Positions 3,120-21,556 of a stretch of DNA of 64,000 nucleotides are shown piece by piece (position 1 is the stretch's first letter; each line of letters begins with the position of its first letter). Source of the DNA: a virus; the IMG/VR virus record IMGVR_UViG_3300025101_000026, positions 20 through 64,019 of that record. The stretch is one strand, 5' to 3'. The notes beneath the pieces were generated by a model. It ran no database searches, was not told the DNA's origin, and saw nothing but the letters and a program-made list of their open reading frames with translations. Made by a program: the position numbers and the translations under genes.

Positions 3120-3955
3120 TGGCATTACGTTCTCAAATATCATCTATCGTAGCTAATCAACTAGGAGGTATTCAAGGTAATATAGAAGCTAGAATACAGA
3201 CTGAAACAGTAAAATTATTAGATAAATTCTCTAATAGATGCCCGGATAGGGATGAGCTTATAAAAATAATTAAAACACGTAACAGTCTTTTAAGAGTAAT
3301 AAACTCATTTCAAAAAAAAGTAAATAGATTTAATTCTATTCCTAATAAATTAAGACGGCCTATAAGTATAGCTAAAAGAATAATAAAATTATTAAAACGT
3401 AATAGAACTAAATTAGCTATAGGAAATAGACCTTCCTTCTCAGATTTTGATAGAGGGGGTCTTTTCTCTGCTAAAACAGCAGGCTTTACAAATAGACAAG
3501 CTGATAGATTAGTAAAAACTACTCTATTATTAGAAGATTTAGAAGATGACCTAGCAGCAGTAAAAGGATTACTACAAGGAGTAGCACCTTCGTTTGATAA
3601 TATTAAAGAACTTTTAGAAAGTATTAATGTTAACGTAGAAGAATGTGCTGAAGAATTACAACAATCACAAGACCAGGCTAACTTGATGGATTTAATAAAA
3701 GAAGTACAGCCTTTAGAAAATACAGGCTCTGAAGGAACTCCTGATGAAAACTTTACTTATAGAGGAGCAAATGGAAAAGATTATGCTCTTTCTATAATCG
3801 AATCACCTTCTGATGACACTACGGTACTTAGAAGAGTTGCTATCGCAAAAGATATATTTGGTATTACTGTACTTAGAGGGCAACCTTCATATAGTTCTGA
3901 TACTAAAATACTTTTAGATGAATTAAAATTTAGAATAGATAATCAACTTCCATAA
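3119..3955 (+). CDS. Hypothetical baseplate-region protein
   Basis: 278-aa ORF abutting the spike-like gene, with a coiled-coil centre. Confidence 0.5.
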   Translation: MALRSQISSIVANQLGGIQGNIEARIQTETVKLLDKFSNRCPDRDELIKIIKTRNSLLRVINSFQKKVNRFNSIPNKLRRPISIAKRIIKLLKRNRTKLAIGNRPSFSDFDRGGLFSAKTAGFTNRQADRLVKTTLLLEDLEDDLAAVKGLLQGVAPSFDNIKELLESINVNVEECAEELQQSQDQANLMDLIKEVQPLENTGSEGTPDENFTYRGANGKDYALSIIESPSDDTTVLRRVAIAKDIFGITVLRGQPSYSSDTKILLDELKFRIDNQLP

Positions 3956-3961
3956 CACAAC

Positions 3962-3969
3962 TATTTATA
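3962..3969 (+). promoter_or_regulatory. Putative late promoter TATTTATA
   Basis: Intergenic, 3 nt before ATG 3973. Confidence 0.55.
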
Positions 3970-3972
3970 ATT

Positions 3973-4419
3973 ATGAAAATAAATCAATTAAGGAAAATAA
4001 TAAAAGAAGAAGTAAAATCTGCTATTAAAGAAGAGTTACAAGATTTATTAACTGAAGCAGTTAAAATAGCAAGTAAACCTGAAACAAATAATAACAGATA
4101 CAAACCAGTTACACAAAAAGATATAAAACAAACCTGGTCTACAGGCAAAATGAGCTCAGGCACAACACCTATACAAGAAATGCTTAGTCAGACTAGAGCT
4201 TCAATGACAGGTGAAGAATATAGAAATGTGTTTGCAGGGAATGCAGATATGGTACAAAAGCCTAACTTTGCTTCATCAATGGCAAGTAATATGGGTATGA
4301 CAGATGCTAGAGGACCTATGCCAGGTATGGATATAAGTAAATTAGATTTTGTAAAAAAAGCAGGAGCTGTGTATAACAAATCAGTAGAAAAAGATAAACA
4401 AAAATACGGAGTAGCATAA
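3973..4419 (+). CDS. Hypothetical protein with MKI..L..IIKEE leader (putative internal virion protein)
   Basis: MKINQLRKIIKEEVKSAIKEELQDLLTE; TATTTATA immediately upstream. Confidence 0.55.
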   Translation: MKINQLRKIIKEEVKSAIKEELQDLLTEAVKIASKPETNNNRYKPVTQKDIKQTWSTGKMSSGTTPIQEMLSQTRASMTGEEYRNVFAGNADMVQKPNFASSMASNMGMTDARGPMPGMDISKLDFVKKAGAVYNKSVEKDKQKYGVA

Positions 4420-4420
4420 A

Positions 4421-4831
4421 ATGGCATTTAATAGTAGAAAAATAAATCCTTTAGATTTACAACCTAGAAAAGCTATAGGTGTTTCTCTACCGCTTTCTGG
4501 CAAAGCAGTTTTTAACCAAACGTTTCAAACTAAAGATGCTATAAGAACTAACCTGATTAATTATTTTTTAACTGGACAGGGAGAAAGATACTTAAACCCG
4601 ACTTTTGGTACTGAAATAAGGAACTTAATGTTTGAAAATATAACACAAGAAATGGTTAGTAGAGTAAAAAGCACAGTACAAAGAGGATTAGCAGAGTTCT
4701 TTCCATCAGTACAACCTACTGATTTTGAAGTTACAGGTAATCCTGATACTAATACGGTTTCGTTATTATTAAGATATGCAATCCAAGATACCAATATTGA
4801 AGATGAGGTATTAATAAATTTTGAGCAATAA
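4421..4831 (+). CDS. gp25: Baseplate wedge subunit, gp25-like
   Basis: DAIRTNLINYFLTGQGERYLNPTFGTEIRNLMFE is the typical GPW/gp25 signature; adjacent to gp6. Confidence 0.85.
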   Translation: MAFNSRKINPLDLQPRKAIGVSLPLSGKAVFNQTFQTKDAIRTNLINYFLTGQGERYLNPTFGTEIRNLMFENITQEMVSRVKSTVQRGLAEFFPSVQPTDFEVTGNPDTNTVSLLLRYAIQDTNIEDEVLINFEQ

Positions 4832-6657
4832 TGGCTGAAAAAAGAGACATAAAATACGTAGCTAGAGAATTTTCTGATTATAAACAGGAACTAATAGAAT
4901 TTGCTAAGAACTACTTTCCTGATAGTTATAACGACTTTTCACCTACTTCTCCCGGTATGATGTTTATAGAAATGGCTGCATACGTAGGAGATATACTATC
5001 TTTTTATCAAGATACACAGCTACAAGAGACTTTCTTACAGTATGCCAAGGATCCTAGCAACCTATATACTATGGCGTATATGATGGGGTACCGTCCTAAA
5101 GTTACTAACGTTTCCGAAGTTGAACTATCAGTAACTCAGAACGTAGGAGCCGATCCAACAACTAATCAACCTAATTGGAATCAAGCTTTGGTAGTAAATG
5201 AAAACGCTATAGTAACATCAACTTCTACAGGTAATGCAAATTTTTTCATAGAAAATAAAATAGACTTTTCTTTTTCTAGCTCTTTTGATCCTACCGACGT
5301 GGTAATAACTACTCTAGAGGGAGGAGTACCTAGTGAATTTTTACTTACTAAAAAAATTAAAGCTTTCTCAGGAGATATCAAGACAGTTACTGAAACCTAT
5401 ACAACTGCAGAAAAATTTGCTACAATTACTATCGAAGATACTAATATTATAGGAGTATTAGAAATTACAGATGATAGTAGCGATGAAGTTACTAAATGGA
5501 ATGAAGTACCTTTTTTAGGACAAGATACTGTTTTTGTTCAAGAATCAAACGTAGGTAGTGATTCAGATAAAGTACCTAATTCTATTAAATTGCAAAAAGT
5601 ATCTAAAAGATTTGTAACTAGATTTAATTCTAGCGGAAATCTAATAATTCAGTTTGGAGCTGGTACAGTAGGGGCTGATGATAGTACTTTTACACCTGAT
5701 CCTACTAATGTAGGTATGGGGACCTTACAAGGACTAAGCACTATCGATAAAGCTTATGATCCATCCAATTTTATGTATACTCAAACATATGGTTTAGCTC
5801 CTTCTAATTCTACATTGACTATAAAATACTTAGTAGGAGGAGGGGTAGAAGCTAATGTTCCTGCAAATACTCTAACAGGCTTTACAGCTACATCTACAGC
5901 AGTAGACACAACTTATCAAAATACCCTAGCTTTCAATAACCCGCAACCGGCATCAGGCGGAAAAGACGGAGATACTATAGAAGAAATAAGACAAAATTCA
6001 CTCCGTTCATTTTCAGAACAGAAAAGAACAGTTACCTTACAAGATTACACAGTTAGAGCACTTTCGTTAGATCCTAAATTTGGTACAGTAGCTAAAGTAT
6101 TTGTTACTCAAGACGAATTGAACAGTACTCAGTCTACTACTGATTCTATAATTGATAGTAACCCTCTTGCTTTATCTCTTTATGTACTGGGTTACGATGC
6201 TAATAAAAAGTTAGTAACTGCTACCGATACTTTAAAAAATAATTTAAGAACTTATATGTCGTTCTATACACCTATTACTGACGCTCTCAATATAAAAGAT
6301 GCATTCGTAGTAAATGTAGGTATTAATTTCGATATATTAGTTAGACCTAATTACAATAGTAGAGACGTACTTTTAGCTTGTAATAATACTTTACAAGAAT
6401 ACTTTGATATTTCCAGGTGGAATATAAATCAACCTATCAATATTTCTAGTATATATAGTTTATTAGATAGAGTTGTTGGAGTGCAGACGGTAAGTAAAAT
6501 AGAAATAATTAATAAACAAGGAGGAAATTATTCTCAATATGCTTATGATATTAAAGGAGCTACTCGTAATAATATAGTATATCCTTCATTTGATACGATG
6601 ATTTTTGAACTTAAATTTCCTAATTTTGATATAAAAGGAAGAACTACAACATTATAA
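4831..6657 (+). CDS. gp6: Baseplate wedge subunit, gp6/baseplate-J-like
   Basis: DFSPTSPGMMFIEMAAYVGDILSFYQD, GYRPK, IQFGAG, ASGGKDGDTIEEIRQNS...RTVTLQDY. Confidence 0.85.
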   Translation: MAEKRDIKYVAREFSDYKQELIEFAKNYFPDSYNDFSPTSPGMMFIEMAAYVGDILSFYQDTQLQETFLQYAKDPSNLYTMAYMMGYRPKVTNVSEVELSVTQNVGADPTTNQPNWNQALVVNENAIVTSTSTGNANFFIENKIDFSFSSSFDPTDVVITTLEGGVPSEFLLTKKIKAFSGDIKTVTETYTTAEKFATITIEDTNIIGVLEITDDSSDEVTKWNEVPFLGQDTVFVQESNVGSDSDKVPNSIKLQKVSKRFVTRFNSSGNLIIQFGAGTVGADDSTFTPDPTNVGMGTLQGLSTIDKAYDPSNFMYTQTYGLAPSNSTLTIKYLVGGGVEANVPANTLTGFTATSTAVDTTYQNTLAFNNPQPASGGKDGDTIEEIRQNSLRSFSEQKRTVTLQDYTVRALSLDPKFGTVAKVFVTQDELNSTQSTTDSIIDSNPLALSLYVLGYDANKKLVTATDTLKNNLRTYMSFYTPITDALNIKDAFVVNVGINFDILVRPNYNSRDVLLACNNTLQEYFDISRWNINQPINISSIYSLLDRVVGVQTVSKIEIINKQGGNYSQYAYDIKGATRNNIVYPSFDTMIFELKFPNFDIKGRTTTL

Positions 6658-6658
6658 T

Positions 6659-7792
6659 ATGGCAATTTATAGAATATTTCCCGATAAAGATTCTTTTATT
6701 TTTTCTGAAACCAATACAGGTAACGCAGGAAGAGATGAAATAGTAGAAATAGCAGGCTACAAAGGAACTATAGACGGTACCGGTCAAGCAAGTCGTATAG
6801 TAACTAAATTTTTAGATAGTGAGATAGACGATGTTATTAATAATAAAGTAACTTTAGCTTTGACTAGCTCTATGAGTGCTAGCTTAAAGATGTACCTAGC
6901 AGAAGCTTCTGACCTACCTGTAGAATACTGTTTAAAAGCGTACCCAATATTCATACCAGGAACAGGAGAATGGGATAATGGAACTGGTAAATTCGCAGAT
7001 AGTCCTGTTAATAAATCAGGAGTAAGCTGGTTATTTAAAAATTCAGCACAACTAAATGCTTGGTCTACAGCTGGATTCACATCTTTTACTACTGCTTCAT
7101 TTATTTCAGGGAAAGAAGGCGGAGGTAACTGGTATACTGCTTCAAATGGAGTAGATATGCAATTTTTCCAATCTCATAGCATATCCTCAGACCATGATAT
7201 GGATATCAACGTAACTCCTGCTATTAAACAGATTTACGATGATTTACTTCCTAATAAAGGGTTTATAATTAAATTAGAGGATCAATACGAATTTTTTACC
7301 TCTGCTTCTATAAGATTAAAGTATTTTAGTAAAGATACTAATACTATATATCCTCCGTTTTTGGAAATAGGATGGGACGATAGAGTTTATACTACAGGTA
7401 GTTTGTCTGTTTTAGATACTGATATTGCTACTATAGATATAAAAAATAATAAAGGAGAATATACTGATGAAGGTAAGCAAAGATTTAGAATTACAGCTAG
7501 ACCTGAATACCCAACTAGAACATTCACAACATCTTCAGTATTTTTGACAAACTTTGCTCTTCCATCTGCTTCGTATTGGGGATTAAGAGATGAAAATACA
7601 GAAGAAATGGTAGTAAACTTTAGCACAGACTTTACTAAAATAAGTTGTGATAGTAATGGACCATTTTTTGATGTTTATATGGATGGGTTGCAACCTGAAA
7701 GATATTATCGTATATTAATCAAGACTACTTTAGATAATAGTACCGTTATAGTAGATAATAGAAACATATTTAAAGTTGTAAGAAATGGCTAG
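6659..7792 (+). CDS. Putative structural (baseplate) protein
   Basis: 377-aa ORF inside the baseplate operon, with a beta-rich C-terminus (GLQPERYYRILIK). Confidence 0.5.
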   Translation: MAIYRIFPDKDSFIFSETNTGNAGRDEIVEIAGYKGTIDGTGQASRIVTKFLDSEIDDVINNKVTLALTSSMSASLKMYLAEASDLPVEYCLKAYPIFIPGTGEWDNGTGKFADSPVNKSGVSWLFKNSAQLNAWSTAGFTSFTTASFISGKEGGGNWYTASNGVDMQFFQSHSISSDHDMDINVTPAIKQIYDDLLPNKGFIIKLEDQYEFFTSASIRLKYFSKDTNTIYPPFLEIGWDDRVYTTGSLSVLDTDIATIDIKNNKGEYTDEGKQRFRITARPEYPTRTFTTSSVFLTNFALPSASYWGLRDENTEEMVVNFSTDFTKISCDSNGPFFDVYMDGLQPERYYRILIKTTLDNSTVIVDNRNIFKVVRNG

Positions 7793-8123
7793 AGAAAAAA
7801 TTAGAATAATTACAAAATCTAATAATCGGGAAAAGCTCCGTAACGTAATAGATACTGAATTCAAAACTTATGTAGATCCCGTAGATGTTATAGATAATGA
7901 TACAGTTGAAGAGCTTTTTAGACTTTATGATAAACTCTATTACAATATACCATTAGAAGGAGAGAATAATTCTCACGAGTATATTTTAGCTAGAAGTTCT
8001 CAACTTGTAGATTTAGAAAAAGATACTGATGAAATACAGCCTCTATTAGACGAAATAGGTCAACTTAGACAGCAATTATTAGCTGCTAATGAACAGATAT
8101 TTGAATTAGAAAAAGATGCCTAA
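7785..8123 (+). CDS. Hypothetical protein with C-terminal coiled coil
   Basis: Overlaps both neighbours by 8 nt; PLLDEIGQLRQQLLAANEQIFELEK. Confidence 0.55.
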   Translation: MAREKIRIITKSNNREKLRNVIDTEFKTYVDPVDVIDNDTVEELFRLYDKLYYNIPLEGENNSHEYILARSSQLVDLEKDTDEIQPLLDEIGQLRQQLLAANEQIFELEKDA

Positions 8124-11100
8124 AATTGAATATAACGTCTTTAAAGTTGATCCTGTAGGATTAGCAAGATTTAAAGAACTACCGAACGAAAGTTTAGAAA
8201 ATATAATTGAACCTGTAGAAGTAGCAGGGTCCTTTATTTCAAACGAAGATTTTGTAGAACTATCCTATTTTACTTTAGATAACGTTAGAGTTCAAACTGT
8301 AGCTGACTACCGTAACTACTCCGTTGTTTCAGGAGAAAGAACTTCGGGTGCTGCAGGAAATGCAGAAATATCAGTCGATCCTTTAGAAGACTACAAAATT
8401 TTTTACGGAACTACAGGAGAAGTAAAAGCTCTGTACAATTTTTTAAGAGATCCTTTCCTTACTAATAGAGTAAGACAACAATTTTTTTTCGAAAGCATTT
8501 CTTCTGACAGAAAAGAGGCTAGATTATTACCTGTTGCATTAGATTCACTGACGGTACAGCAAGTAGGTCAAAGATTAAATACAAGATTTTTTGAAGAAGT
8601 TTATAGTGTTAACTTACATTTATACCCTAGTGAAAATAATTTTCATAGTATAGTTAATGTAGATATTAAACCTTTTAGAGGAACAACTTCACTTATTTTA
8701 AAATTTGCAGAACCTTTACCTCAATCCTACGAAGTAAATAATTTAACTTTTATAGTTGAAAAAATAGCAGATTCTATAGCTTACGAAATAGAAACTGAAG
8801 TTATTCCAGATGAAGAGGTAGTACCAACATTAAGAGGAGCTAATTTTAACGTAGATGTCGAAGAGCAGAATACTGAACCTTCGCAATATTATAACTATAA
8901 TGAATTATTTAGCTTTCCTGTTAATAATACTAATAGAGAATTAAATTCACTTTTTAACGAAAAAGGAGCTGAACTTAGTATAGACTATTCTAGTTTTAGT
9001 AATTTTATTAATTTTTCATCAGCTGAAGAAAGACTAAGAAATTTTAGATATAAATTAGATCTTATAAATTCATATCAAAGTAGTTTAGATAATATAAACG
9101 ATTCTACATACACTTCCGCTGGAATATCAGGAAGTAGGAATTTTTATGAAAATTTACTCAATGGAGTAATAAATAATTTTGATCATTTTGAAAGACATTT
9201 ATATTTCGAAAGTGGTTCAACATCATGGCCTAAATTATTTTCTACTCCTAACGGAGCTGATAAACCCTATACCAATATGGCTTCTGATGAAGAAGCAGCT
9301 ATTTCTTTTTACAATACGGAAATACAGTCCGCAGTACTCTATGATTCTCAAAATCCAGATATACTTACCAATACCATACCAGCATTTTTAAAAGAAGATT
9401 CTAATAACGAACCGTATGAACTATTCATACATATGATAGCTCAACATTTCGATAATTTATGGCTGTATACTGACGCTGTTTCTAAAAAATATGATGCAGA
9501 TAATAGATTAGATAGAGGTGTGTCTAAAGATTTAGTAGAAGATCTACTTAAAAATTTCGGAGTAAAACTATATACTAGTACTAAATCAGCAGAAGATCTA
9601 TTTAGATATTTTACAGCAAACTCTTACGTAACTGATGGAGAATTTTTGCCTTCCGGTATTACTAATTCTGGAGAAGAACCATTATCGCAGAATGATTACC
9701 AAAAAGAAATTTATAAAAGGATATACCATAATTTACCTATATTATTAAAAAGTAAAGGTACTGAAAGAGGTTTAAGAGCACTTATAAATTGCTTCGGTAT
9801 ACCCTCAGACGTTCTTAAGATAAAAATTTTCGGAGGTCAATCAGTTAATGATTTACCTTATTTTGGAGGGGAACAAGCCTTTACTGGTTCGTTTGATAAA
9901 GTAAGATTAGATAATACTGGAAGTATAGTTCCGGGTGATACTATATCTTTTTATACTTCTATAAATAAAAAAGACAATAAATACACTCAAGATTTACATA
10001 GAGTTGAAGTAGGATTTTCTCCTTCTGATAATATGGATAACTATATAGTATCTCAATCAGCAGTACTTTTTCCAAACGATCCTTTTAATATAGACCAGTA
10101 TATAGGTGATCCAAGAAGTTACCCTACTAATAAGTATACTGAACTTTATTACCACGCTCAAACAGTTCTTGCTGATGTTAGTGAGTATAACGTTAAAGAC
10201 TTTGTTAGATTAATTAAATTTTTCGATAATGTTTTATTTAGAATGGTTCGTGATTTTATTCCTGCAAGAGCAGTTACGGATGCAGGTATAATAATTAAAC
10301 CACATTTATTAGAAAGAAATAAAGCTAAAGAGCCCGTAATGACATGGACTAGACCTGAATATACTGGTTCTATTAAAGTAATAACTATGTCCGGTTCTAA
10401 CGCAGGTGCATACCAGAACATAGGTTTTGGTTCAGTAGCTACTTCTACCGATAGTACAGTATTTGATAAAGAATCTAAAACTGCTTATAGTAGACAAGTT
10501 ATGACACCGTTAGGATTAAGGCCTAAGATAATAAATTCATTGTCTCAAGTTCTAGTAGAAAAGAATTTTAATGAAGCTAAATTTGACGGGGAACTAAAAA
10601 ACAGTTACTTTAGAATTACTAACGGTGAATTGAACGATGAAAATCCCTTCAAGCAGATTACATACCCTGAAGTACAATACAATACTCAATTCTGGACCGA
10701 AATACCCCCAGAACTTTGTATATTATCTACTGAAAATACTGAATACATAGTTACTAATCCTGCACAAGACTTAAATCTAGCCGCTGGAGTTTTTATAGGA
10801 GATACTCCTTTGTACAATTTTTTCGTAGACGGAGATACTCCAAATGTTAATTCTTTTACCCACAACTTTAGTGATGGTTCACAGTACGACGTTTTTAACA
10901 TAGTTGCTGAACATATTAATCATCCTAATATTTTTAACTCTGCTTCTCAAGAAGAAGGCTGTCGAGAGTCAAGAGATGTGAGGATTGTAAGTTGCTTCTT
11001 AGGATCAGTACCAACAGGAAACATACCTCCAATAGTTACTAGTAATTTACCATATAATTTATATGAAATATTTTTTAATCCTGATGATCCTAATGATCCT

Positions 11101-14276: not shown

Positions 14277-15293
14277 ATGTCATTTAAAAGATTAGATCCA
14301 GAAGATATTTCGATTAGTGCAGAATCAGTAGTTTCTCCAGCATGGACAGGAGGTAATGTCACTCTTTCTGAATTCCATCTCAACGCTAATCAAACAGCTA
14401 ATAACACAGGTAATTTTTATTTTGAAGTTTACCACCAAGCATCACCATCAAATACTACTGCAAGAGTACAATTTGCTTTAGCATACGGACATAAAAATGG
14501 ATTAGGTAGTATTCCTTATGATTCTAGTGAAGCAGGGAAATCTCCTTCATCTACTATTTACGGTCAATATAGAAATTTAGTATTTGGAGATGAAGAACAA
14601 GATTTTACTTTTCAAGGTCAAACGTCTGACGACATTTACGTTATAACTGTTGATAGAGCTAGATACAAAGAAAAACTATTTCCAGGTACTTTTAATTTAA
14701 AGTTAGTTAGTGGTTCAAATGTACTACACTTAACCGATAATAGTAACGATTTATCTACAGTATCGTATGTTGATGCCGGTAGAGTATTCGATGTAGTAAG
14801 CGGTTCTAACGGATCAGGTTACGGCTCTACTACCGGGTATAACACAGCTGGAGGTAGCTATGGAAAGTTTTTACCAGATGTAGGAATAATAATACTTAAC
14901 GGAACAGCTTTAAATTCTTCTACTGATGGTGTAGCTATACAAACTAACTTCGGTACAACTAATTCTGCAATAGGAATGAAAAATATGCAAAGAATCTTTA
15001 ATGTGATAGATGCTGGTGATGCATTTTCTTTGCAATCAGAAGAAACAGTTTCTTCTAACTTTGTTTTTGTACGAGTAAGAAACAGTGAATTTAACTACTC
15101 TACTAATCCATCTAACATTACCTCTTCAGGAGAATTACGTCACGATGTTATGATCAATACTCCTCAAGCGTATATAACAACAGTTGGATTATATAATGAT
15201 AATAACGATCTTTTAGGGGTAGCTAAACTTTCTAGGCCTTTACTTAAAGACTTTACTAAAGAAGCGTTAATCAGAATCAAACTTGATTATTAA
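14277..15293 (+). CDS. Tail/baseplate protein with fibre-attachment-type C-terminal motif
   Basis: Ends in YITTVGLYNDNNDLLGVAKLSRPLLKDFTKEALIRIKLDY. Confidence 0.55.
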   Translation: MSFKRLDPEDISISAESVVSPAWTGGNVTLSEFHLNANQTANNTGNFYFEVYHQASPSNTTARVQFALAYGHKNGLGSIPYDSSEAGKSPSSTIYGQYRNLVFGDEEQDFTFQGQTSDDIYVITVDRARYKEKLFPGTFNLKLVSGSNVLHLTDNSNDLSTVSYVDAGRVFDVVSGSNGSGYGSTTGYNTAGGSYGKFLPDVGIIILNGTALNSSTDGVAIQTNFGTTNSAIGMKNMQRIFNVIDAGDAFSLQSEETVSSNFVFVRVRNSEFNYSTNPSNITSSGELRHDVMINTPQAYITTVGLYNDNNDLLGVAKLSRPLLKDFTKEALIRIKLDY

Positions 15294-15296
15294 TGA

Positions 15297-16988
15297 ATGA
15301 GTGCTTACAAAAAATTAAACCAACAAGATTCGTATATATCAACTTATGTCTCCCGAAAGTCTTGGATAGCTAGCGGTAGTCAATATAGAGAGTTAGGTAT
15401 AAACAATATAGTTGGTCTTTCTGGTTCTAGAAATACTTATCTATATTCTGCAGATAATGTAACTGCAGGTAATGCTATAACAACAGCAAGTTCAGCTTTT
15501 AACAGAAGATTAATTTTCGATAGTGTTAACCACCTATACTATAACGAATTCAAAAACTCTGTTCTTATAACTTCTAGTTCATATGAAGCTTATTTACAAT
15601 CATCTTATGAAGTAAGCGGTTCAAGATATTTAAATACTAGAGTTGCTATTTTTTCTCTACCAAAAGAGATGTACGGAACTAATATAGAACCATTTTCAGT
15701 TTCTATAACTCCTGATTTTATTAACAGCGGTAGCGCTGAAACAGGTAGTTTTGACAACTACGTTCATAATAACTACTCTACTGAAGAAGGTATTAATTCT
15801 ATAGCAGCAGATAGAAATCTGTATATAGAAAATATAGAATTTTTATTTGGTTCAACTGGAGCTAATTGTAGTTTTGATCATCCTGATTATATAGAAAACG
15901 AATCGACTTATGTAGATGAAAGTAGTAATGAATATTTAGATACTACAGGTAATGCTAGAAACTGTAATGAAATATGCGACGATGGAGAAGGTAGATTATA
16001 CTTCAAATATTCTATACCTAGAGTTTACGTAGGTAATGTTATATATACTCACGGTCAAATTATAATTACTGATGAAATAGTAGCTATGTACTATAATCAC
16101 TATTTTGATGCAGTATTAAAATGGAAATCAAACCTACCTATATATACTCACAATTTTCACTGTAAACTTAAAAGTCATGAATTTAACTATAGTTTAAATA
16201 AAACAGCTTTTGAAACTACAGATGGAAAGCTATCAAATCTTCTTTCTGGCTCTAGTTTTGCACCCTACTTTACTACTGTAGGTTTATATAATGATGCTAA
16301 TGAACTAGTAGCTGTAGGAAAATTAGGTAGACCTACTCCTAAATCGACCGAAACTGATATGTCTGTTTTAGTTAAGTTAGACATGAATTTTGGCTCAGAT
16401 AGATTAATAGGAAGTAGAACAACAGAATTTATTGCATCTGATCCTGAGGAAGATAACGTAGTAGTTAATGAACCTCGTTGTATATATTATTTTACTTTTC
16501 GTAATTATTACTACAAAGGAAGCACTGGTACAAATCAATCTTTACACGGCTCTCCTTACTACCGTAAGAAATCACAAACTAAAAGAGTATTAAGGGACGA
16601 TGGAGATTATATACTTTATAGGAAAGCATCATCGACTACTGATATTTGTAAAAAATCTAATGATAACAGAAAAGTTTTTAATACTGAAAATTTTACAATA
16701 CTTCAAAGAAGTCCTAATTTTAAAGTAAAAAAAGGACTAACTAGTGTCTGTTATGTTGACGTAACAGTTGAAAAAGTAGATAATATAACGGATAATATTA
16801 ATGCAGACTTCAATGGTTTTGTTTTTGACTTTACACAAAAAGATGGTTCTCAATACAATGAAACCAGTAACGTAAATAATAGAACAAAACAATTTTTTAG
16901 AGATAAGATTACAAGCTATTTATTATCAAATAAAGCGCCTTGTACGTTTGAAGCATCGCAAGATGCAGTAAGTTGCTTGCCTTCATAG
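15297..16988 (+). CDS. Tail/baseplate protein, paralogue of the upstream gene with extra C-terminal domain; 3' end overlaps a group I intron
   Basis: Contains YFTTVGLYNDANELVAVGKLGRPTPKSTETDMSVLVKLD, followed by about 195 additional residues. Confidence 0.6.
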   Translation: MSAYKKLNQQDSYISTYVSRKSWIASGSQYRELGINNIVGLSGSRNTYLYSADNVTAGNAITTASSAFNRRLIFDSVNHLYYNEFKNSVLITSSSYEAYLQSSYEVSGSRYLNTRVAIFSLPKEMYGTNIEPFSVSITPDFINSGSAETGSFDNYVHNNYSTEEGINSIAADRNLYIENIEFLFGSTGANCSFDHPDYIENESTYVDESSNEYLDTTGNARNCNEICDDGEGRLYFKYSIPRVYVGNVIYTHGQIIITDEIVAMYYNHYFDAVLKWKSNLPIYTHNFHCKLKSHEFNYSLNKTAFETTDGKLSNLLSGSSFAPYFTTVGLYNDANELVAVGKLGRPTPKSTETDMSVLVKLDMNFGSDRLIGSRTTEFIASDPEEDNVVVNEPRCIYYFTFRNYYYKGSTGTNQSLHGSPYYRKKSQTKRVLRDDGDYILYRKASSTTDICKKSNDNRKVFNTENFTILQRSPNFKVKKGLTSVCYVDVTVEKVDNITDNINADFNGFVFDFTQKDGSQYNETSNVNNRTKQFFRDKITSYLLSNKAPCTFEASQDAVSCLPS

Positions 16989-17257
16989 CAAATATAAAGG
17001 TAAGTAGAATTGAAATATTGAATAAAAAGTCCAGATTAAACTGGGTGAATTGCTGGGAACTCTTTAGAGCTTTAACTACCGAAGCGTAACAATGTTAAAG
17101 ATTAGACAATCAGCAGCCAAGCTACAAGCCATCTTGTAGAAGGTTCAGAGACTACTGGAGGGAAAATGGCTTCCCTTAATAACCAGATTAGCGCCCAGCA
17201 GGAGTAATCCTGATGATATAGTCCGATCTTTATGGAGACATAAAGTTAACAGTAATG
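16978..17257 (+). ncRNA. Group I self-splicing intron (IA-like, no ORF); boundaries provisional
   Basis: P3 CTGGGTG 17041-47 / CGCCCAG 17192-98. P4 TGCTGG / TCAGCA. P5 extension CTTTAAC/GTTAAAG. P6a CTACAAG/CTTGTAG. P7 G-A(bulge)-GACTA 17148-54 / TAGTCC 17219-24. P7.1 CTGG..CCAG with inner AGGGAA/TTCCCT. P8 CAGGA-GTAA-TCCTG. P9 CTTTATG-GAGA-CATAAAG. Conserved P/Q/R/S elements AATTGCTGGGAAC, AATCAGCAG, GTTCAGAGACTA and GATATAGTCC are present. Confidence 0.9.
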
Positions 17258-17327
17258 AGTGTAGCGGTAACCTTAGGTAGGATAAAACAAGCACCACTGG
17301 ATTAACATTACATTAAAATAGATAATA

Positions 17328-19061
17328 ATGAGTAAACAAATAGTTCTTAGAGTCAACAAAGGATCCGCTCTTACTTATGATGAGATGGACAGAAACCAGT
17401 CTCAATTTTATTATTCGAGCTCTACGGATCCATCAGGAACTCAACTTCGATTACATTACTCAGGAAGTAATTCATTAAATGGATCGGGTGTTGACTATTC
17501 ACCTGGCTTTCATACTGTACAATTTCCTAGCGTAGATATTACTATTCCTGAAGCAGTAGCAGCAGGGGATAATACACAAGTCCAATACAACAAAAACGGA
17601 GCATTTGCTGCAGATAGTTTATTTACTTTCAACGAAGACAGTAACTTTTTAGGAATTGGTACAGGAGCTCCAACCTACAGATTACATTTAGAAGCTGACG
17701 AAACTAATAAAGCTGAAATTTACTTAAACGGTAAATCTACAGCCAATAGCAATTTAACTGTACCTTCTTTTGTATCATTTGCAGAAAATAATGACATACT
17801 GGGTAAAGTCGGTAGAATTAATACAAACGAAAAACATACATATTTAACCAATAATAATTTTTCACAAGGTAGTGATATATACGGGCAAGTAGTAATAGGC
17901 ATAACAGGTAATACCGGTGATGAATTAAATAGTGTAGCTAGTTTTGACTTTAGCGGTAATTTTCCAACTTTAGGAATAGGAACAGGTAATACAGTATTAG
18001 ACGGTGAAGCAAGAAATATATCAGTAGTAGGTTCGCGAGGAGTTGGATTCGGTACTTCTACTAACTATGGATTAGCTTCTTATATTAAACCTATACCAAC
18101 AGAATTAATTTCTCAAACTAATTCTGACGGTACTAGAAAATTTATTCCTAATTTAAGTACTGTTGATACTGATGGTCTATTAATATCTTCACCCGATGAC
18201 GCTGAAGGAGGTAATTTAATTTTAAATATTAATACCGATTCATTAAAGCATGAAGCGTTTAATATTATTCAATCAGTAAATAGAGATTATACTAATTCAG
18301 GTTTAATAGCTTCTTTTCCAGCTAGTGGTAAAGTAGGTATAAATACAAGTAATGCTGATGATGTAGGATTAACAGTATCTGGTATAGTATCTAGTTCAGG
18401 TAACTTTACAACTGAAGGTACTGCTACTATAGGTACTTTAGCAGCCGGTACATCTGATTCAACGAGTGCCCTAGTTGCTACTACAGCAGGACTAGTACAA
18501 AAAATAGCTGCAGCACCGGTACCTCTAGGAGGTATAATTATGTGGTCAGGCGCTCCAAACGCTGTTCCAGATGGATGGACATTATGTAATGGTTCAGGAG
18601 GAGCTAATGGTGTAACAGTACCTGATCTAAGAAATAAATTTGTAGTAGCTGCTGGTAGTTCAGGTGGAACCGCTACTACTAATATAGAAGGAACAGATCA
18701 ATCTAGTGGAGGAAGTAATACACATAATCATGGAGGCAGTACAGGAAATACTACATTAACCATATCACAACTACCTGCACATAGTCACGGTTATGATGAT
18801 GCATACTATGCTGAAGCTCGTAGTGGAGTTCAATATAACGTTAGAGGAGATGCTGATGGTGGTGGTACAGATGGTGATAATGAATTTTTCTGGAGAACTC
18901 GTGATAACGACGGACAACCCTTTGGAAATCCTCCAAGTGGAAATGACCAACCTTTAACTGAAACTACAGGAAGTGGTAACTCTCACAATCATTCAATAAC
19001 CAGTGTTAATAATATACCAGAGTATTATGCATTAGCATTTATAATTTACGTAGGAGCATAA
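17328..19061 (+). CDS. Tail fibre protein with C-terminal phage tail-collar domain
   Basis: VPLGGIIMWSGAPNAVPDGWTLCNG...VPDLRNKFVVAAG...LTISQLPAHSH...NIPEYYALAFII. N-terminus LRVNKGSALTYDEMD. Confidence 0.8.
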   Translation: MSKQIVLRVNKGSALTYDEMDRNQSQFYYSSSTDPSGTQLRLHYSGSNSLNGSGVDYSPGFHTVQFPSVDITIPEAVAAGDNTQVQYNKNGAFAADSLFTFNEDSNFLGIGTGAPTYRLHLEADETNKAEIYLNGKSTANSNLTVPSFVSFAENNDILGKVGRINTNEKHTYLTNNNFSQGSDIYGQVVIGITGNTGDELNSVASFDFSGNFPTLGIGTGNTVLDGEARNISVVGSRGVGFGTSTNYGLASYIKPIPTELISQTNSDGTRKFIPNLSTVDTDGLLISSPDDAEGGNLILNINTDSLKHEAFNIIQSVNRDYTNSGLIASFPASGKVGINTSNADDVGLTVSGIVSSSGNFTTEGTATIGTLAAGTSDSTSALVATTAGLVQKIAAAPVPLGGIIMWSGAPNAVPDGWTLCNGSGGANGVTVPDLRNKFVVAAGSSGGTATTNIEGTDQSSGGSNTHNHGGSTGNTTLTISQLPAHSHGYDDAYYAEARSGVQYNVRGDADGGGTDGDNEFFWRTRDNDGQPFGNPPSGNDQPLTETTGSGNSHNHSITSVNNIPEYYALAFIIYVGA

Positions 19062-19096: not shown

Positions 19097-21556
19097 ATGG
19101 CAATACCAGGATTAACATATAGATTAGCAAAAGGATCATCTCTTACTCATACAGAGATGGATAATAACTTTAGATCATTAATCTATTCTAGTTCTATACA
19201 AGATGGAGGAGATACACTTCATTTACATTTTGATACTTTAGCAGGTACAGATAAACATATCATACCTCTTGCTGGAGGGACAGGAGGACTTACTATTAGT
19301 AATAATATTGATAATAGGGTAGTAACAGCTACAGGTACTGCAGGATTGATTCAAGGAGAAGGAAACTTAACATTTGACGGTAGTAATTTAACAGTAGTAG
19401 GAAAGATAAGTGTAGAAGATAGTGATAAAAATATTCTTATAGGTAATCTAGCTGGTACTGATATAGTAGGAGGCGAATGTATAATTGCTATAGGTAAAGA
19501 AGCAGGAAAAAAATTAACTACTAATAATAATGTTGTAATTGGAACTGGTGCATTAATAGCAGCAGAAGCATCTGCAGGTAGTGTAGTAGTCGGAGATAGT
19601 GCGTTACCGGCCTTAACCTCCGGTGATAATAATGTAGCTATAGGAGTTGGAGCAGCTACTAATGTAAGCTCAGGTGCAAGTAATATCTATATAGGAGCAA
19701 ACGCTGGACCTACTTCTACAACATCACAAAATAATAAACTTTATATAAATAATGCACAGTCAGATACTCCTTTAATATTAGGAGATTTTTCTACTCAACA
19801 AATTACTTTTCCAGCAGGAGTAACAGGTTCATCATTTACAGGTTCTTTCTTCGGTGACGGATCTAATTTAACTGGTTTATCAGTTTCTTCTGAATGGGAT
19901 GGTTCGAGAAATGGCGATGCTGAAATAACCGGATCATTCGTAGTATCAGGTTCAGGAGCTGTAGTAAACTTTACTAACACAACTGCTATCTCAGGTTCAA
20001 TATTTTCAGGTTCATTCTCAGGTGATGGTTCAGGTTTAACAGGAGTGACTGCAAACGCTTTTCCTCATACAGGTTCGGCTGTTATATCAGGTAGTTTAAC
20101 TGTTATAAATTACCCTGCTAATACTACTATTATTTCAGGTTCTACTGCTATTAGTGGTTCATTAACCGTAAATAATTTATCAGGTTCATTTTTCAAAGAG
20201 TATATTACAGTTGGTAATAATATTAAAATACATCAACCTAACGTACAGTCTATAGGTATAGGTTGCGATACTTTCAAAGAAAATAACGGTTCTGGAGGCT
20301 CTACTGCAATAGGATTTAAAGCAATGTGTTTAGGAGGGGGTGTAAGGAATGTTGCAGTTGGAAACGCAGCTATGCAATGCGGAGGTTACGACTCAGTAGC
20401 TATAGGTAATTGTGCTATGAGACAGAATTTCGGTACCAATAATGTTGGTATCGGCTCTAACGCTTTAGCTACAGGAAAAGTTTGTAATTTATTAGGTAAT
20501 AGAAATTTAGCCATAGGAGCTTATGCATTGAACGGTACTGGTCCAGGTAGCTTTAACGTAGGTTTAGGAACTAATTCTCTCTGTACTAACAGATTCGGTT
20601 CATGTAATACAGCAGTAGGGCAATTTTCTTTAGATAAATTAAGATCTATAGTAGCAGGAGTAAGTGATAGAAATACTGCTATTGGAGCTTTTGCAGGTAG
20701 AAACTTAAGAGACGGTAAAAATAATGTATTTATTGGATTCTGTGCAGGACCTGCTGTATTGAATACAGATGAATCGAATCAACTATATATAGCATCTAGT
20801 TCAGGAGATCCGCTAATAAAAGGAGACTTCTTATTAAGAACATTAAATATAAGTGGTTCGATGAAAGTTAGCCAATCTATTTCAGCTTCTGCTTTTTCAG
20901 GAGATGGATCAGGATTAACTAACTTACCAGGAACTGAATGGGATGGTACAAGAAACGGAGATGCAGAAATTACAGGTTCTCTAATAGTTTCAGGAGCTGC
21001 TACTACTACAGTTGACTTTACAGGAACAAACGCAATATCAGGTTCTACATTCTCAGGCTCATTTGTAGGAGATGGATCTGGACTAACCGGAGTTACTTCA
21101 GAATGGGATGGAACTAGGAACGGTAACTCAAGTATAACTGGTTCTTTAGTAGTTTCAGGTTCCTTAGATGCATCAGGAACAGTAACTTTAGCTTCATCAG
21201 GTTTCCCAGGAGGCCCAGGAGTAGAAATTATACATTTCCATTCTTCTAGTTTATCAGGTATCCATAATATTCATTCATTTGCTATTCATAATACTACCGG
21301 CTATACCGGTTTTAAAGCAGATTATGCTTTAACTAATGCTAATGAAAGTGAAAAAAGAGTAGGTACGTTATTAGGTGCATGGGATCAATCAGGAGGAGAA
21401 ACTATAAATGATTCTCATACTATATCGACCGGAGCTATTAATACTACAGCATTTAGTATAGACTCAGACGGCTCGACTGCAATATTAAAATTAAATGCAT
21501 CATCAGGAACTTATGAAGTTAATATGTTAATAACAGCATTTAAACGACAAGTATAA
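19097..21556 (+). CDS. Tail fibre/adhesin with YadA-head-like (NxAxG) repeats
   Basis: N-terminus YRLAKGSSLTHTEMDNNF (paralogous to 17328). Repeats of about 14 aa (NVAIG/NTAVG) and SGSFSGDGSGLT...EWDG modules. Confidence 0.7.
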   Translation: MAIPGLTYRLAKGSSLTHTEMDNNFRSLIYSSSIQDGGDTLHLHFDTLAGTDKHIIPLAGGTGGLTISNNIDNRVVTATGTAGLIQGEGNLTFDGSNLTVVGKISVEDSDKNILIGNLAGTDIVGGECIIAIGKEAGKKLTTNNNVVIGTGALIAAEASAGSVVVGDSALPALTSGDNNVAIGVGAATNVSSGASNIYIGANAGPTSTTSQNNKLYINNAQSDTPLILGDFSTQQITFPAGVTGSSFTGSFFGDGSNLTGLSVSSEWDGSRNGDAEITGSFVVSGSGAVVNFTNTTAISGSIFSGSFSGDGSGLTGVTANAFPHTGSAVISGSLTVINYPANTTIISGSTAISGSLTVNNLSGSFFKEYITVGNNIKIHQPNVQSIGIGCDTFKENNGSGGSTAIGFKAMCLGGGVRNVAVGNAAMQCGGYDSVAIGNCAMRQNFGTNNVGIGSNALATGKVCNLLGNRNLAIGAYALNGTGPGSFNVGLGTNSLCTNRFGSCNTAVGQFSLDKLRSIVAGVSDRNTAIGAFAGRNLRDGKNNVFIGFCAGPAVLNTDESNQLYIASSSGDPLIKGDFLLRTLNISGSMKVSQSISASAFSGDGSGLTNLPGTEWDGTRNGDAEITGSLIVSGAATTTVDFTGTNAISGSTFSGSFVGDGSGLTGVTSEWDGTRNGNSSITGSLVVSGSLDASGTVTLASSGFPGGPGVEIIHFHSSSLSGIHNIHSFAIHNTTGYTGFKADYALTNANESEKRVGTLLGAWDQSGGETINDSHTISTGAINTTAFSIDSDGSTAILKLNASSGTYEVNMLITAFKRQV

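What the first reader, a model, noticed from the sequence alone, without database searches (positions are those of the whole stretch)
16978..17257. ORF-less group I intron at the very end of a tail gene, apparently inserted in its stop codon
Seen: a full catalytic core (P3-P9, bulged-A G-binding site in P7, GNRA loops on P8 and P9, P7.1 extension typical of subgroup IA) fills what looks like an intergenic gap, with no homing endonuclease ORF. Best splice model: 5' site after T16977 (P1 UUGCU paired to IGS GGUAA 16999-17003 with a U-G wobble) and omega-G 17257 (P9.0 AU 17226-27 with AU 17255-56; weak P10 UGUA/UAUA). Ligated exons read TGC-T|AG, recreating a TAG stop. Unspliced RNA stops at TAG 16986, only 3 aa later, so the intron is nearly silent for the protein. 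An alternative omega-G at 17252 would instead add LMSVAVTLGRIKQAPLD. Established: phage group I introns usually sit at conserved sites in essential genes such as td, nrdB/nrdD or DNA polymerase. Inference: either a safe-haven insertion, or a retained ribozyme that processes the late tail/fibre polycistron or yields a circular RNA.
Basis: partly seen in the sequence, partly recalled or inferred. Interest (0 to 1): 0.8.

Follow-up and report, generated by a model that had tools for sequence, protein, structure and literature searches.

The report
Circularly permuted phage group I ribozyme
The gap between two phage tail genes holds a genuine group I self-splicing ribozyme whose cutting site lies behind its catalytic core instead of in front, so it should cut the tail-gene message in two (and perhaps release a tiny RNA ring) rather than splice a gene together.

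Summary
The group I ribozyme is real: RF00028 scores 91.6 bits at 16971-17245. The stop-codon splice model does not hold.

Comparison of 22 distinct relatives in IMG/VR contigs, including Flavobacterium phage immuto, gives these results:
- **Guide sequence.** It lies at 17028-17034, directly 5' of P3.
- **P1 partner.** The guide pairs with C17297-U17303, which is 40 nt downstream of omega-G, not with anything upstream.
- **Support.** The G.U wobble is invariant, the flanking pairs covary, and 0 of 20,000 shuffles match the observed pairing.
- **Controls.** Canonical relatives place the same substrate 14-19 nt upstream of the guide.

The element is therefore a naturally circularly permuted group I intron in which the 3' splice site precedes the 5' splice site.
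- The predicted cut is U17302|U17303, 25 nt before the next tail-fibre gene's ATG.
- The 45-nt linker between the two sites is non-coding and could be released as a circle.
- A second covarying helix (17252-57 with 17306-11) clamps the two reaction sites together.

The core is 93% identical among phages whose flanking genes are 64-74% identical. No RNA evidence for cleavage was obtained.

Print holds only a mitochondrial back-splicing case (PMC6545197) and permuted group II ribozymes. This scan has noted permuted group I introns before on other, unrelated DNA.

The parts
15297..16988 (+). Upstream structural gene (563 aa) with its own TAG stop at 16986-88. Residues ~371-563 occur only in relatives that also carry the ribozyme.
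   Evidence: No Pfam or PHROG hit. It lies in a baseplate/tail-fibre cluster.
16989..17027 (+). Variable A-rich spacer between the stop codon and the ribozyme.
   Evidence: Spacer identity is 67% against 93% for the core. In other subfamilies the stop codon lies only 5-24 nt before the guide.
17028..17034 (+). Internal guide sequence (P1 3' strand), A-G-U-C-C-A-G. G17029 is the wobble G. It joins P3 directly through AUUAAA (17035-17040); there is no P2.
   Evidence: RNAalifold helix with covariation. 13 distinct guide/substrate combinations. The canonical relative L052 has the same guide-UUAAA-P3 layout.
17041..17245 (+). Catalytic core. P3 17041-47/17192-98; P4 17051-56/17110-15; P5/P5a 17061-76/17094-17106; P6/P6a 17116-28/17133-44; P7 ~17150-54/17219-23; P7.1 17155-86; P8 17199-17212; P9 17228-45.
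   Evidence: RF00028 at 91.6 bits. Compensatory changes in P3, P5, P5a, P6a, P7.1 and P8. Mean pairwise identity 92.8%.
17246..17257 (+). Conserved 3' terminal segment UUAACAGUAAUG ending in omega-G (G17257), which is the 3' splice site.
   Evidence: Conservation boundary. Homologous AACAUAAAUG| terminus of the canonical RNR intron L052, whose exon junction restores the reading frame.
17258..17302 (+). 45-nt linker (the permuted 'exon') between the 3' and 5' splice sites. Closing stem 17259-62/17291-94, inner hairpin 17271-73/17279-81. It is the candidate circular product.
   Evidence: Length is 17-80 nt across the family, in all classes modulo 3, at 56% identity. The hairpin shows compensatory changes, CCU/AGG against CCUCC/GGAGG.
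17297..17303 (+). P1 substrate strand C-U-G-G-A-U|U. The predicted 5'-splice-site-type cleavage lies between U17302 and U17303.
   Evidence: G17029.U17302 is invariant. The neighbouring pairs take 3 and 4 Watson-Crick types. 31 of 39 variable cells are paired against a shuffle mean of 16.8, and 0 of 20,000 shuffles reach that. The downstream site is always the best match; upstream matches are weak and scattered.
17306..17311 (+). 3' strand (CAUUAC) of helix b, which pairs with GUAAUG 17252-17257 (including omega-G). It brings the two reaction sites together.
   Evidence: Present in 22 of 22 members at 5-8 bp, in at least 8 sequence versions such as UAAUGGU/ACCAUUA, AAGUGU/ACACUU and UAAAUGC/GCAUUUA.
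17303..17327 (+). 25-nt A/U-rich leader that would remain on the downstream mRNA after the cut.
   Evidence: The cut-to-ATG distance is 24-30 nt in 17 distinct members from two different downstream-gene contexts.
17328..19061 (+). Downstream tail-fibre / collar-fibre gene (577 aa) with its own ATG and a conserved N-terminus (MSxxIVLRxNKGSALTY).
   Evidence: PHROG tail protein and tail-collar-fibre hits. N-terminus conserved in all relatives.

Best explanation
This is a naturally circularly permuted group I ribozyme.

**Layout.** Reading 5' to 3', the RNA holds the guide sequence, the whole P3-P9 core, omega-G (the 3' splice site), a short non-coding linker, and only then the P1 substrate strand with the U.G cleavage site (the 5' splice site). 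Almost the entire intron is the '3' half', opened in what would be the P1 loop.

**Predicted reaction.** This is inferred from group I chemistry and from engineered permuted intron-exon constructs.
1. A free guanosine nucleotide attacks between U17302 and U17303. That severs the late polycistronic transcript 25 nt before the start codon of the next tail-fibre gene and leaves the added G (pppG if GTP is used) on the downstream mRNA.
2. The new 3'-OH of U17302 may attack the bond after omega-G17257. That would release the 45-nt linker as a small circle and leave the upstream mRNA ending in the folded ribozyme.

**Helix b.** This helix (17252-57 with 17306-11) holds the downstream piece next to omega-G and appears to stand in for the missing P1 loop and P10.

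**What is shown and what is inferred.** Shown: the core, the permuted P1, helix b, the non-coding linker, and conservation in a fixed intergenic position. Inferred: catalysis in vivo, the second step and circle, and the biological role. I take that role to be a programmed cut that uncouples the two tail-gene messages and gives each a protected end.
For: - **Core.** RF00028 scores 91.6 bits.
- **Same position in relatives.** The element sits in the same place in every relative that keeps the upstream gene's C-terminal domain, at 81-94 bits across 50-99% protein identity.
- **Long-range helix.** RNAalifold finds the helix 17028-33 / 17298-17303 on its own, with a covarying pair.
- **P1 statistics.** Over 13 distinct guide/substrate combinations the G.U is 13/13. 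The pair above it is A-U, U-A or G-C (12/13). The pair below the CC/GG block is A-U, U-A, G-C or C-G (13/13). 0 of 20,000 shuffles match.
- **Controls.** Canonical introns L052 and L046 have an 8/8 substrate 14-19 nt upstream of the guide. The family has its best substrate 11-74 nt downstream of omega-G and only weak, scattered upstream matches.
- **Homology to L052.** L052 shares the guide-UUAAA-P3 layout, starts U|UAAC and ends AACAUAAAUG|, and its exons join in frame.
- **No room upstream.** In five subfamilies the upstream stop codon is 5-24 nt from the guide, which leaves no room for an upstream P1.
- **Helix b.** Found in 22 of 22 members with many compensatory versions.
- **Conservation.** The core is 92.8% identical, against 64-74% for flanking coding DNA and 56% for the linker.
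- **Cut position.** 24-30 nt before the ATG in two gene contexts.
Against: - **No RNA evidence.** Contigs from four RNA libraries showed only uncut, relative-derived sequence across both sites and no joints, and they may be DNA carry-over.
- **No P10.** No P10-type pairing for the second step: observed run 3.2 against 3.4 for shuffles.
- **Omega-G is paired.** It sits inside helix b and would have to be released before it could act.
- **Short linkers.** In four subfamilies the linker is only 17-20 nt, which may be tight for circle formation.
- **Terminator-like hairpin.** In immuto and L049 the element is followed by such a hairpin rather than a nearby start codon, so 'cut just before a gene' is not universal.
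- **Limits on the pairing support.** Invariant pairs (GUCC/GGAU) say nothing for or against pairing on their own. The covariation support rests on 2-3 positions in P1.
Confidence: 0.62

Rival explanations
1. It is a canonical intron. The 5' splice site lies upstream in or near the end of the 563-aa gene, the 3' splice site is at G17257 (or 17252), and the exons are ligated with little or no effect on the protein.
For: The Rfam alignment places a 9-bp hairpin (16975-83 with 16997-17005) in the P1 slot. Omega-G 17257 is correct.
Against: That hairpin has no U.G pair and is absent from all relatives below 99% identity. No relative has a consistent upstream substrate for its own guide, whereas the canonical controls do. 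In several subfamilies the stop codon is 5-24 nt from the guide. Relatives without the ribozyme show no matching junction. The proposed 17-aa exon is non-coding.
Confidence: 0.04
2. It is a domesticated, largely non-catalytic RNA fold. The long-range helix simply closes a stable structure that acts as a 3' stabiliser of the upstream mRNA or as a translational insulator for the downstream start. At most it undergoes hydrolysis at omega-G.
For: Only unprocessed RNA-library contigs were seen. No P10 is present. Omega-G is paired in helix b. Immuto-type members are followed by a terminator-like hairpin, which fits a role at the 3' end of a transcript.
Against: A merely structural helix has no reason to keep an invariant G.U at exactly the P1 wobble position while its neighbours covary. 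The catalytic-core joining regions (J4/5, J6/7, J8/7, P7) are invariant at 93% overall identity, far above the flanks. The omega-G segment is conserved as in active canonical relatives.
Confidence: 0.2
3. It is a lariat-capping (GIR1-like) branching ribozyme that caps the downstream mRNA with a tiny lariat.
For: The topology is similar: a group I-derived core upstream of an ORF, a reaction site 3' of the core, and a three-way junction near the site (linker stem, helix b, long-range helix).
Against: The full Rfam scan gave only RF00028 at gathering score. The element keeps a standard P1-type helix with a U.G wobble and a standard guide, which GIR1 lacks (from knowledge of Meyer et al. 2014, as summarised in PMC8637638). 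Its closest relatives are ordinary splicing introns.
Confidence: 0.03
4. It is an evolutionarily recent, functionless rearrangement product, for example from a tandem duplication of an intron-bearing segment, that persists only because it is harmless between genes.
For: Permuted group II ribozymes were also discussed as possibly futile (PMC8637638). No mobility gene is present.
Against: The same permuted layout is kept in at least 5 sequence subfamilies and at least 4 gene contexts, with compensatory changes in P1 and helix b. The core is far better conserved than the neighbouring coding DNA, while the linker and spacer drift.
Confidence: 0.1

Closest known systems
Canonical ORF-less phage group I introns of the same sequence subgroup, e.g. 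the 255-nt intron in a ribonucleotide-reductase small-subunit gene on IMG/VR contig 3300025769_000138 (L052), and more distantly the S-PM2 psbA intron
   Same: Same core (nhmmer and blastn similarity). Same guide-UUAAA-P3 junction without P2, same P7.1, same U|UAAC start and AACAUAAAUG| end.
   Different: In those introns the P1 substrate is the 5' exon, 14-19 nt upstream of the guide, and splicing restores a reading frame. Here the substrate lies downstream of omega-G, both neighbouring genes are complete without splicing, and the reaction should break the transcript rather than mend it.
ND5-717 giant mitochondrial group I intron of corallimorpharians, removed by back-splicing (Chi et al. 2019, PMC6545197)
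   Same: A natural group I intron acting on a permuted intron-exon precursor, with a circular exon-containing RNA (abstract).
   Different: That permutation arises from how a circular mitochondrial genome is transcribed. The exons are real ND5 coding exons and the purpose is still mRNA splicing. Here the permutation is fixed in a linear phage operon, the 'exon' is a 17-80 nt non-coding linker, and no gene needs the ligation.
Engineered permuted intron-exon (PIE) constructs from T4 td, Anabaena and Tetrahymena introns (reviewed in PMC4344496)
   Same: Same order of elements (3' splice site, then exon, then 5' splice site) and therefore the same predicted products: a circular exon and two linear intron pieces.
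   Different: PIE constructs are usually opened in a peripheral loop such as P6 or P8, so each half carries part of the core. This natural form is opened in the P1 loop and has an extra helix (b) that ties the short 3' piece to omega-G.
Circularly permuted group II ribozymes of bacteria (Roth et al. 2021, PMC8637638)
   Same: Natural permutation of a self-splicing ribozyme. Splice sites are in reversed order and separated by a short, poorly conserved linker (15-86 nt there, 17-80 nt here). There are extra pseudoknots or helices unique to the permuted form, and the biological role is unknown.
   Different: A different ribozyme class and chemistry (branching against guanosine attack). Those are chromosomal or plasmid-borne, while these sit in phage tail-gene clusters.
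Lariat-capping ribozyme (GIR1) and the c-di-GMP-dependent group I ribozyme of Clostridioides difficile (the latter from memory, not checked here)
   Same: Group I-derived RNAs placed upstream of an ORF whose reaction defines or remodels the 5' end or leader of the downstream message.
   Different: GIR1 lacks P1 and makes a 2',5' branch. The C. difficile ribozyme is a normally ordered intron under riboswitch control. Neither has the 5' splice site behind omega-G.

Membership tests
Group I intron catalytic core (Rfam RF00028) | Covariance-model score above the curated gathering threshold over the full model | tested here: met
   91.6 bits against 50, model positions 1-253. 18 relatives score 81-94 bits.
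Group I intron catalytic core (Rfam RF00028) | P3-P9 helices supported by compensatory changes | tested here: met
   Both-side changes in P3, P5, P5a, P6a, P7.1 and P8.
Group I intron catalytic core (Rfam RF00028) | P1 helix with a U.G wobble at the cleavage site, formed with a guide strand next to the core | tested here: met
   G17029.U17302 is invariant in 13/13 combinations and the flanking pairs covary. The position of the guide matches canonical L052.
Canonical (splicing) group I intron | 5' splice site and P1 substrate upstream of the core, 3' splice site downstream | tested here: not met
   The substrate lies 40 nt downstream of omega-G. No consistent upstream substrate exists, while controls L052 and L046 score 8/8 upstream.
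Canonical (splicing) group I intron | Interrupts a gene whose function or frame is restored by exon ligation | tested here: not met
   Both neighbouring ORFs are complete in all relatives. Ribozyme-free relatives have the two genes 14-54 nt apart.
Canonical (splicing) group I intron | P10 pairing between the guide's 5' extension and the 3' exon | tested here: not met
   Best complementary run 3.2 against 3.4 for shuffles.
Permuted intron-exon / circularly permuted self-splicing ribozyme | 3' splice site precedes the 5' splice site on one transcript, separated by a short segment | tested here: met
   Omega-G 17257, then a 45-nt linker, then the cut after U17302. The linker is 17-80 nt across the family.
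Permuted intron-exon / circularly permuted self-splicing ribozyme | Produces a circular RNA from the segment between the sites | not testable with these tools
   RNA-library contigs showed no joints. Contigs cannot show small circles.
Lariat-capping ribozyme (GIR1) | No P1; match to the GIR1 model; branching at a site after omega-G | tested here: not met
   Only RF00028 passed in a scan of all 4227 Rfam families. A P1-type helix with wobble is present. Branching itself is not testable here.

The most novel reading that the evidence does not exclude
Marine phages, probably of Bacteroidota, have domesticated a circularly permuted group I ribozyme as a protein-free RNA-processing device. Using cellular GTP, it cuts the late tail-gene polycistron at a fixed point about 25 nt before a tail-fibre start codon. 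The downstream mRNA gains a triphosphate-G 5' end that mimics a primary transcript. The upstream mRNA ends in a compact ribozyme fold. The 17-80 nt linker is shed as one of the smallest natural RNA circles. This would be the first natural genome-encoded permuted group I ribozyme family in viruses or bacteria with a gene-expression role.
Probability: 0.35. Interest if true: 0.9.

Novelty: new variant of a known kind. Interest (0 to 1): 0.8.

Why it matters
Group I introns are textbook selfish splicing elements whose order of parts was thought fixed. Permuted versions are known as laboratory tools for making circular RNA, and from one mitochondrial special case.

A conserved, genome-encoded permuted form in phage tail operons would show that nature re-wired this ribozyme from 'mend the message' to 'cut the message (and make a ring)'. 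That parallels the permuted group II ribozymes, whose role is still unknown.

It offers a directly testable system, because Flavobacterium phage immuto is cultured and carries a homologue. It also gives a compact natural scaffold (about 275 nt from guide to cut site, opened in the P1 loop, with a built-in clamp helix) for RNA circularisation or programmed mRNA cleavage.

It is also a warning for annotation. Rfam reports such elements as ordinary introns, or misses them altogether as in immuto.

Tried and rejected
- **Near-identity search.** A megablast of the region against INPHARED phages found nothing. The distant mode found only core similarity to other introns.
- **RNA evidence.** Two run searches and one laying of four RNA libraries gave only contigs of relatives running uncut through the omega-G junction (17257|17258), and no joints. 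One 388-nt contig starts within a few nt of the predicted cut, but contig ends are not evidence. The result is inconclusive and is not counted for or against.
- **Fusion of the two tail genes by splicing.** Rejected. No G is available near the ATG in some relatives (L008), and the frames do not fit.
- **Long-range helix as P10 of a canonical intron with a long P9 extension.** Rejected. No G directly precedes the strand, the guide's 3' side (AUUAAA) has no wobble G for a separate P1, and L052 uses the equivalent nucleotides as P1.
- **P10 search.** Negative.
- **Permuted layout in prokaryotic genomes.** Among 21 loci sharing the P7/P7.1 word, 20 are canonical introns in tRNA or protein genes and one (L107) has no ribozyme match.
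- **Rfam on phage immuto.** No hit at gathering score even though the element is homologous. nhmmer finds it at 127 bits.
- **Family searches on the upstream 563-aa protein.** Pfam and PHROG found nothing.
Full report
**What is there.** The window is an IMG/VR viral contig of 64.3 kb, estimated at about 39% complete. It has 33% G+C and no close cultured relative. Rfam's group I intron model matches 16971-17245 on the + strand at 91.6 bits against a gathering score of 50, E 3.5e-22, over the full model length. It is the only family above threshold in the window. The element fills the 339-nt gap between a 563-aa ORF (15297-16988) and a 577-aa tail-fibre / collar-fibre gene (17328-19061). Both lie in a baseplate and tail-fibre cluster. 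The observation of a complete, ORF-less group I core is therefore confirmed.

**Relatives.** A search with the upstream protein returned 25 viral loci. Every locus that keeps the C-terminal part of that protein, at 50-99% identity, carries the same ribozyme directly after the gene at 81-94 bits.
- In all of them the upstream gene has its own stop, the downstream gene has its own ATG with a highly conserved N-terminus, and the gap is 313-392 nt.
- Seven loci whose upstream protein matches only residues 1-370 have no ribozyme. There the gene is 372-375 aa long and the same downstream gene follows after 14-54 nt.

**Where the edges are.** In a 13-sequence alignment the block from 17028 to 17257 is almost invariant, while both sides diverge.
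- Downstream of 17257 the sequence varies in length and content. A 1-nt deletion in L004 and hairpins with compensatory changes show that it is structured RNA and not a 17-aa coding exon.

**The permuted P1.**
- RNAalifold, run without prior assumptions, paired A17028-A17033 (directly 5' of P3) with U17298-U17303. One of those pairs occurs as U-A (7 sequences), A-U (5) or G-C (1).
- I enlarged the family with two core-pattern scans of IMG/VR. Using an nhmmer profile of the core, I scored each member's own guide against 250 nt upstream and 220 nt downstream.
- Two canonical controls behaved as textbook introns. L052 sits in a ribonucleotide-reductase gene and L046 precedes a GIY-YIG-type ORF. 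Each has a perfect 8/8 substrate 14-19 nt upstream of the guide.
- Every member of the window's family has its best substrate 11-74 nt downstream of the core. Upstream matches are weaker and sit at scattered distances of 36-241 nt.
- Over 13 distinct guide/substrate combinations the G.U pair is invariant. The pair above it is A-U, U-A or G-C (12/13 paired). The pair below the CC/GG block takes all four Watson-Crick forms (13/13). In total 31 of 39 variable cells pair, against a shuffle mean of 16.8, and none of 20,000 shuffles reaches that.
- In five subfamilies the upstream stop codon is only 5-24 nt from the guide, so there is no room for an upstream P1 in non-coding RNA.

**Homology fixes both reaction sites.** L052 is a 255-nt canonical intron. 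Its guide is followed by UUAAAU and then P3, with no P2, exactly as here. It begins U|UAAC and ends AACAUAAAUG|, and joining its exons gives an open ribonucleotide-reductase frame (...GQIVSWSIRDESLHVE...). The order on the RNA is therefore guide, core, 3' splice site, 45-nt linker, 5' splice site. That is the arrangement of an engineered permuted intron-exon construct opened in the P1 loop.

**A second family-specific helix.** The last 3-6 nt of the intron including omega-G, often with 1-3 nt beyond it, pair with the RNA 1-7 nt downstream of the cut. In the window this is GUAAUG 17252-57 with CAUUAC 17306-11. The helix exists in all 22 distinct members at 5-8 bp and in at least eight sequence versions. 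Together with the linker's closing stem (17259-62 / 17291-94) and P1, it forms a three-way junction that holds the two reaction sites side by side. No P10-type pairing was found: observed 3.2 against 3.4 for shuffles. Helix b may replace it.

**Selection.** Among 11 members of the tail-fibre clade:

| Region | Mean pairwise identity |
|---|---|
| Ribozyme core | 92.8% |
| First 300 nt of the downstream gene | 73.5% |
| 300 nt within the 3' part of the upstream gene | 64.1% |
| 5' spacer | 67% |
| Linker | 56% |

Linker types follow the clades of the flanking genes, which argues for vertical descent with strong constraint on the core rather than recent spread. Linker length is 17-80 nt and falls in all classes modulo 3.

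**Contexts.** The permuted element occurs in at least four gene contexts, all in late structural clusters:
- between the two tail-fibre genes, as in the window;
- before a 350-366-aa gene beginning MTELEF (L055, L084, L094, L096);
- after a virion structural protein and before a 113-aa gene followed by a tail-fibre gene (L083);
- before an 80-aa gene followed by a tail-sheath gene (L061);
- after a tail-fibre gene plus a small ORF in L042 and in Flavobacterium phage immuto / L049.

In the first two contexts the predicted cut is 24-30 nt before the start codon. In immuto and L049 a terminator-like hairpin follows helix b. Only 3 of 56 gene starts in the window have a Shine-Dalgarno-like word, and the leaders are 80% A+U. 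Together with the immuto similarity, this suggests a Bacteroidota host; that is an inference.

**Mechanism (inferred).**
- From established group I chemistry, an exogenous guanosine nucleotide bound in P7 should attack the bond after the wobble U. Here that severs the polycistronic RNA and adds G to the leader of the downstream gene.
- If the second step follows, as in permuted constructs, U17302 attacks the bond after G17257. The 45-nt linker then circularises, and the upstream mRNA ends in the ribozyme.
- Because the linker is the least conserved part, I think the cut, not the circle, is the selected product. Roth et al. argued the same for permuted group II ribozymes.

**RNA data.** About 20 marine RNA libraries hold words of the conserved core. 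Laying four of them showed contigs of relatives running uncut through the omega-G junction, and no joints. Contigs cannot show ends or small circles, and DNA carry-over is possible, so this neither supports nor refutes activity.

**Literature and earlier notes.**
- Searches for natural permuted group I introns found one case. [quoted passage not shown]
- Permuted group II ribozymes are also described (PMC8637638).
- Everything else concerned engineered constructs.
- This scan's notebook holds two agent reports of permuted group I introns in other genomes, e1-3729962 and e1-2303837.
- Prokaryotic genomes sharing the P7/P7.1 word carry only canonical introns, with one locus (L107) showing no ribozyme match at all.

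**Verdict.** The ribozyme and its omega-G are real. The stop-codon splice model is wrong. The best-supported reading is a conserved, naturally circularly permuted group I ribozyme that should cleave the tail-gene transcript just upstream of the next gene. I put the permuted architecture at about 0.85, and the whole mechanism including in vivo catalysis at about 0.6. It is a new variant of a known kind and merits bench testing.

Noticed in passing
window 15297-16988 (residues ~371-563) against L019-L025: The C-terminal ~190 aa of the upstream protein and the ribozyme are present or absent together. Relatives without the ribozyme end at 372-375 aa. The two may have been acquired as one ~0.9-kb module. 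The domain has no Pfam or PHROG match.
   Followed up: partly
window 14277-15293 and 15297-16988; 17328-19061 and 19097-21556: Residues 267-362 of the 563-aa protein resemble the C-terminal part of the preceding ORF (33-42% identity). The first ~40 residues of the 577-aa fibre resemble the start of the next gene (40-52%). This looks like modular paralogy among consecutive tail proteins.
   Followed up: no
L028 2441-2680 (Flavobacterium phage vB_FspM_immuto_2-6A, MW353175.1 ~145039-145278): A cultured phage carries a homologous permuted ribozyme between tail-region genes. GenBank annotates a 44-aa 'hypothetical protein' (immuto26A_226) across it, and RF00028 misses it at gathering score. It is followed by a terminator-like hairpin.
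   Followed up: partly
L047 (IMGVR_UViG_3300032053_000045), ~3660-9990: Five separate matches to the group I core profile within about 6.3 kb of one viral contig. L046 and L063 have three each. These loci are unusually rich in introns.
   Followed up: no
window 9936-10078 (- strand): A weak sub-threshold RF00028 match (21 bits, E 1e-4) inside the 1400-aa ORF. Probably noise.
   Followed up: no
window 16975-17005: A 9-bp hairpin spans the upstream gene's stop codon in the window and in its 99% relative L003. L005 and L026 have different hairpins at the same place. It is not part of the conserved ribozyme and its function is unknown.
   Followed up: partly
L099-L119 (prokaryotic MAG contigs): Group I introns with the same P7/P7.1 word sit in the anticodon loop of initiator/Met-type tRNA genes of many Clostridia MAGs, and in tRNA genes of Burkholderiales MAGs. 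These are canonical and already a known kind.
   Followed up: no
window, all gene starts: Only 3 of 56 ORF starts have a Shine-Dalgarno-like tetramer. Positions -20..-1 are 50% A and 30% T. This fits a Bacteroidota-type host.
   Followed up: partly
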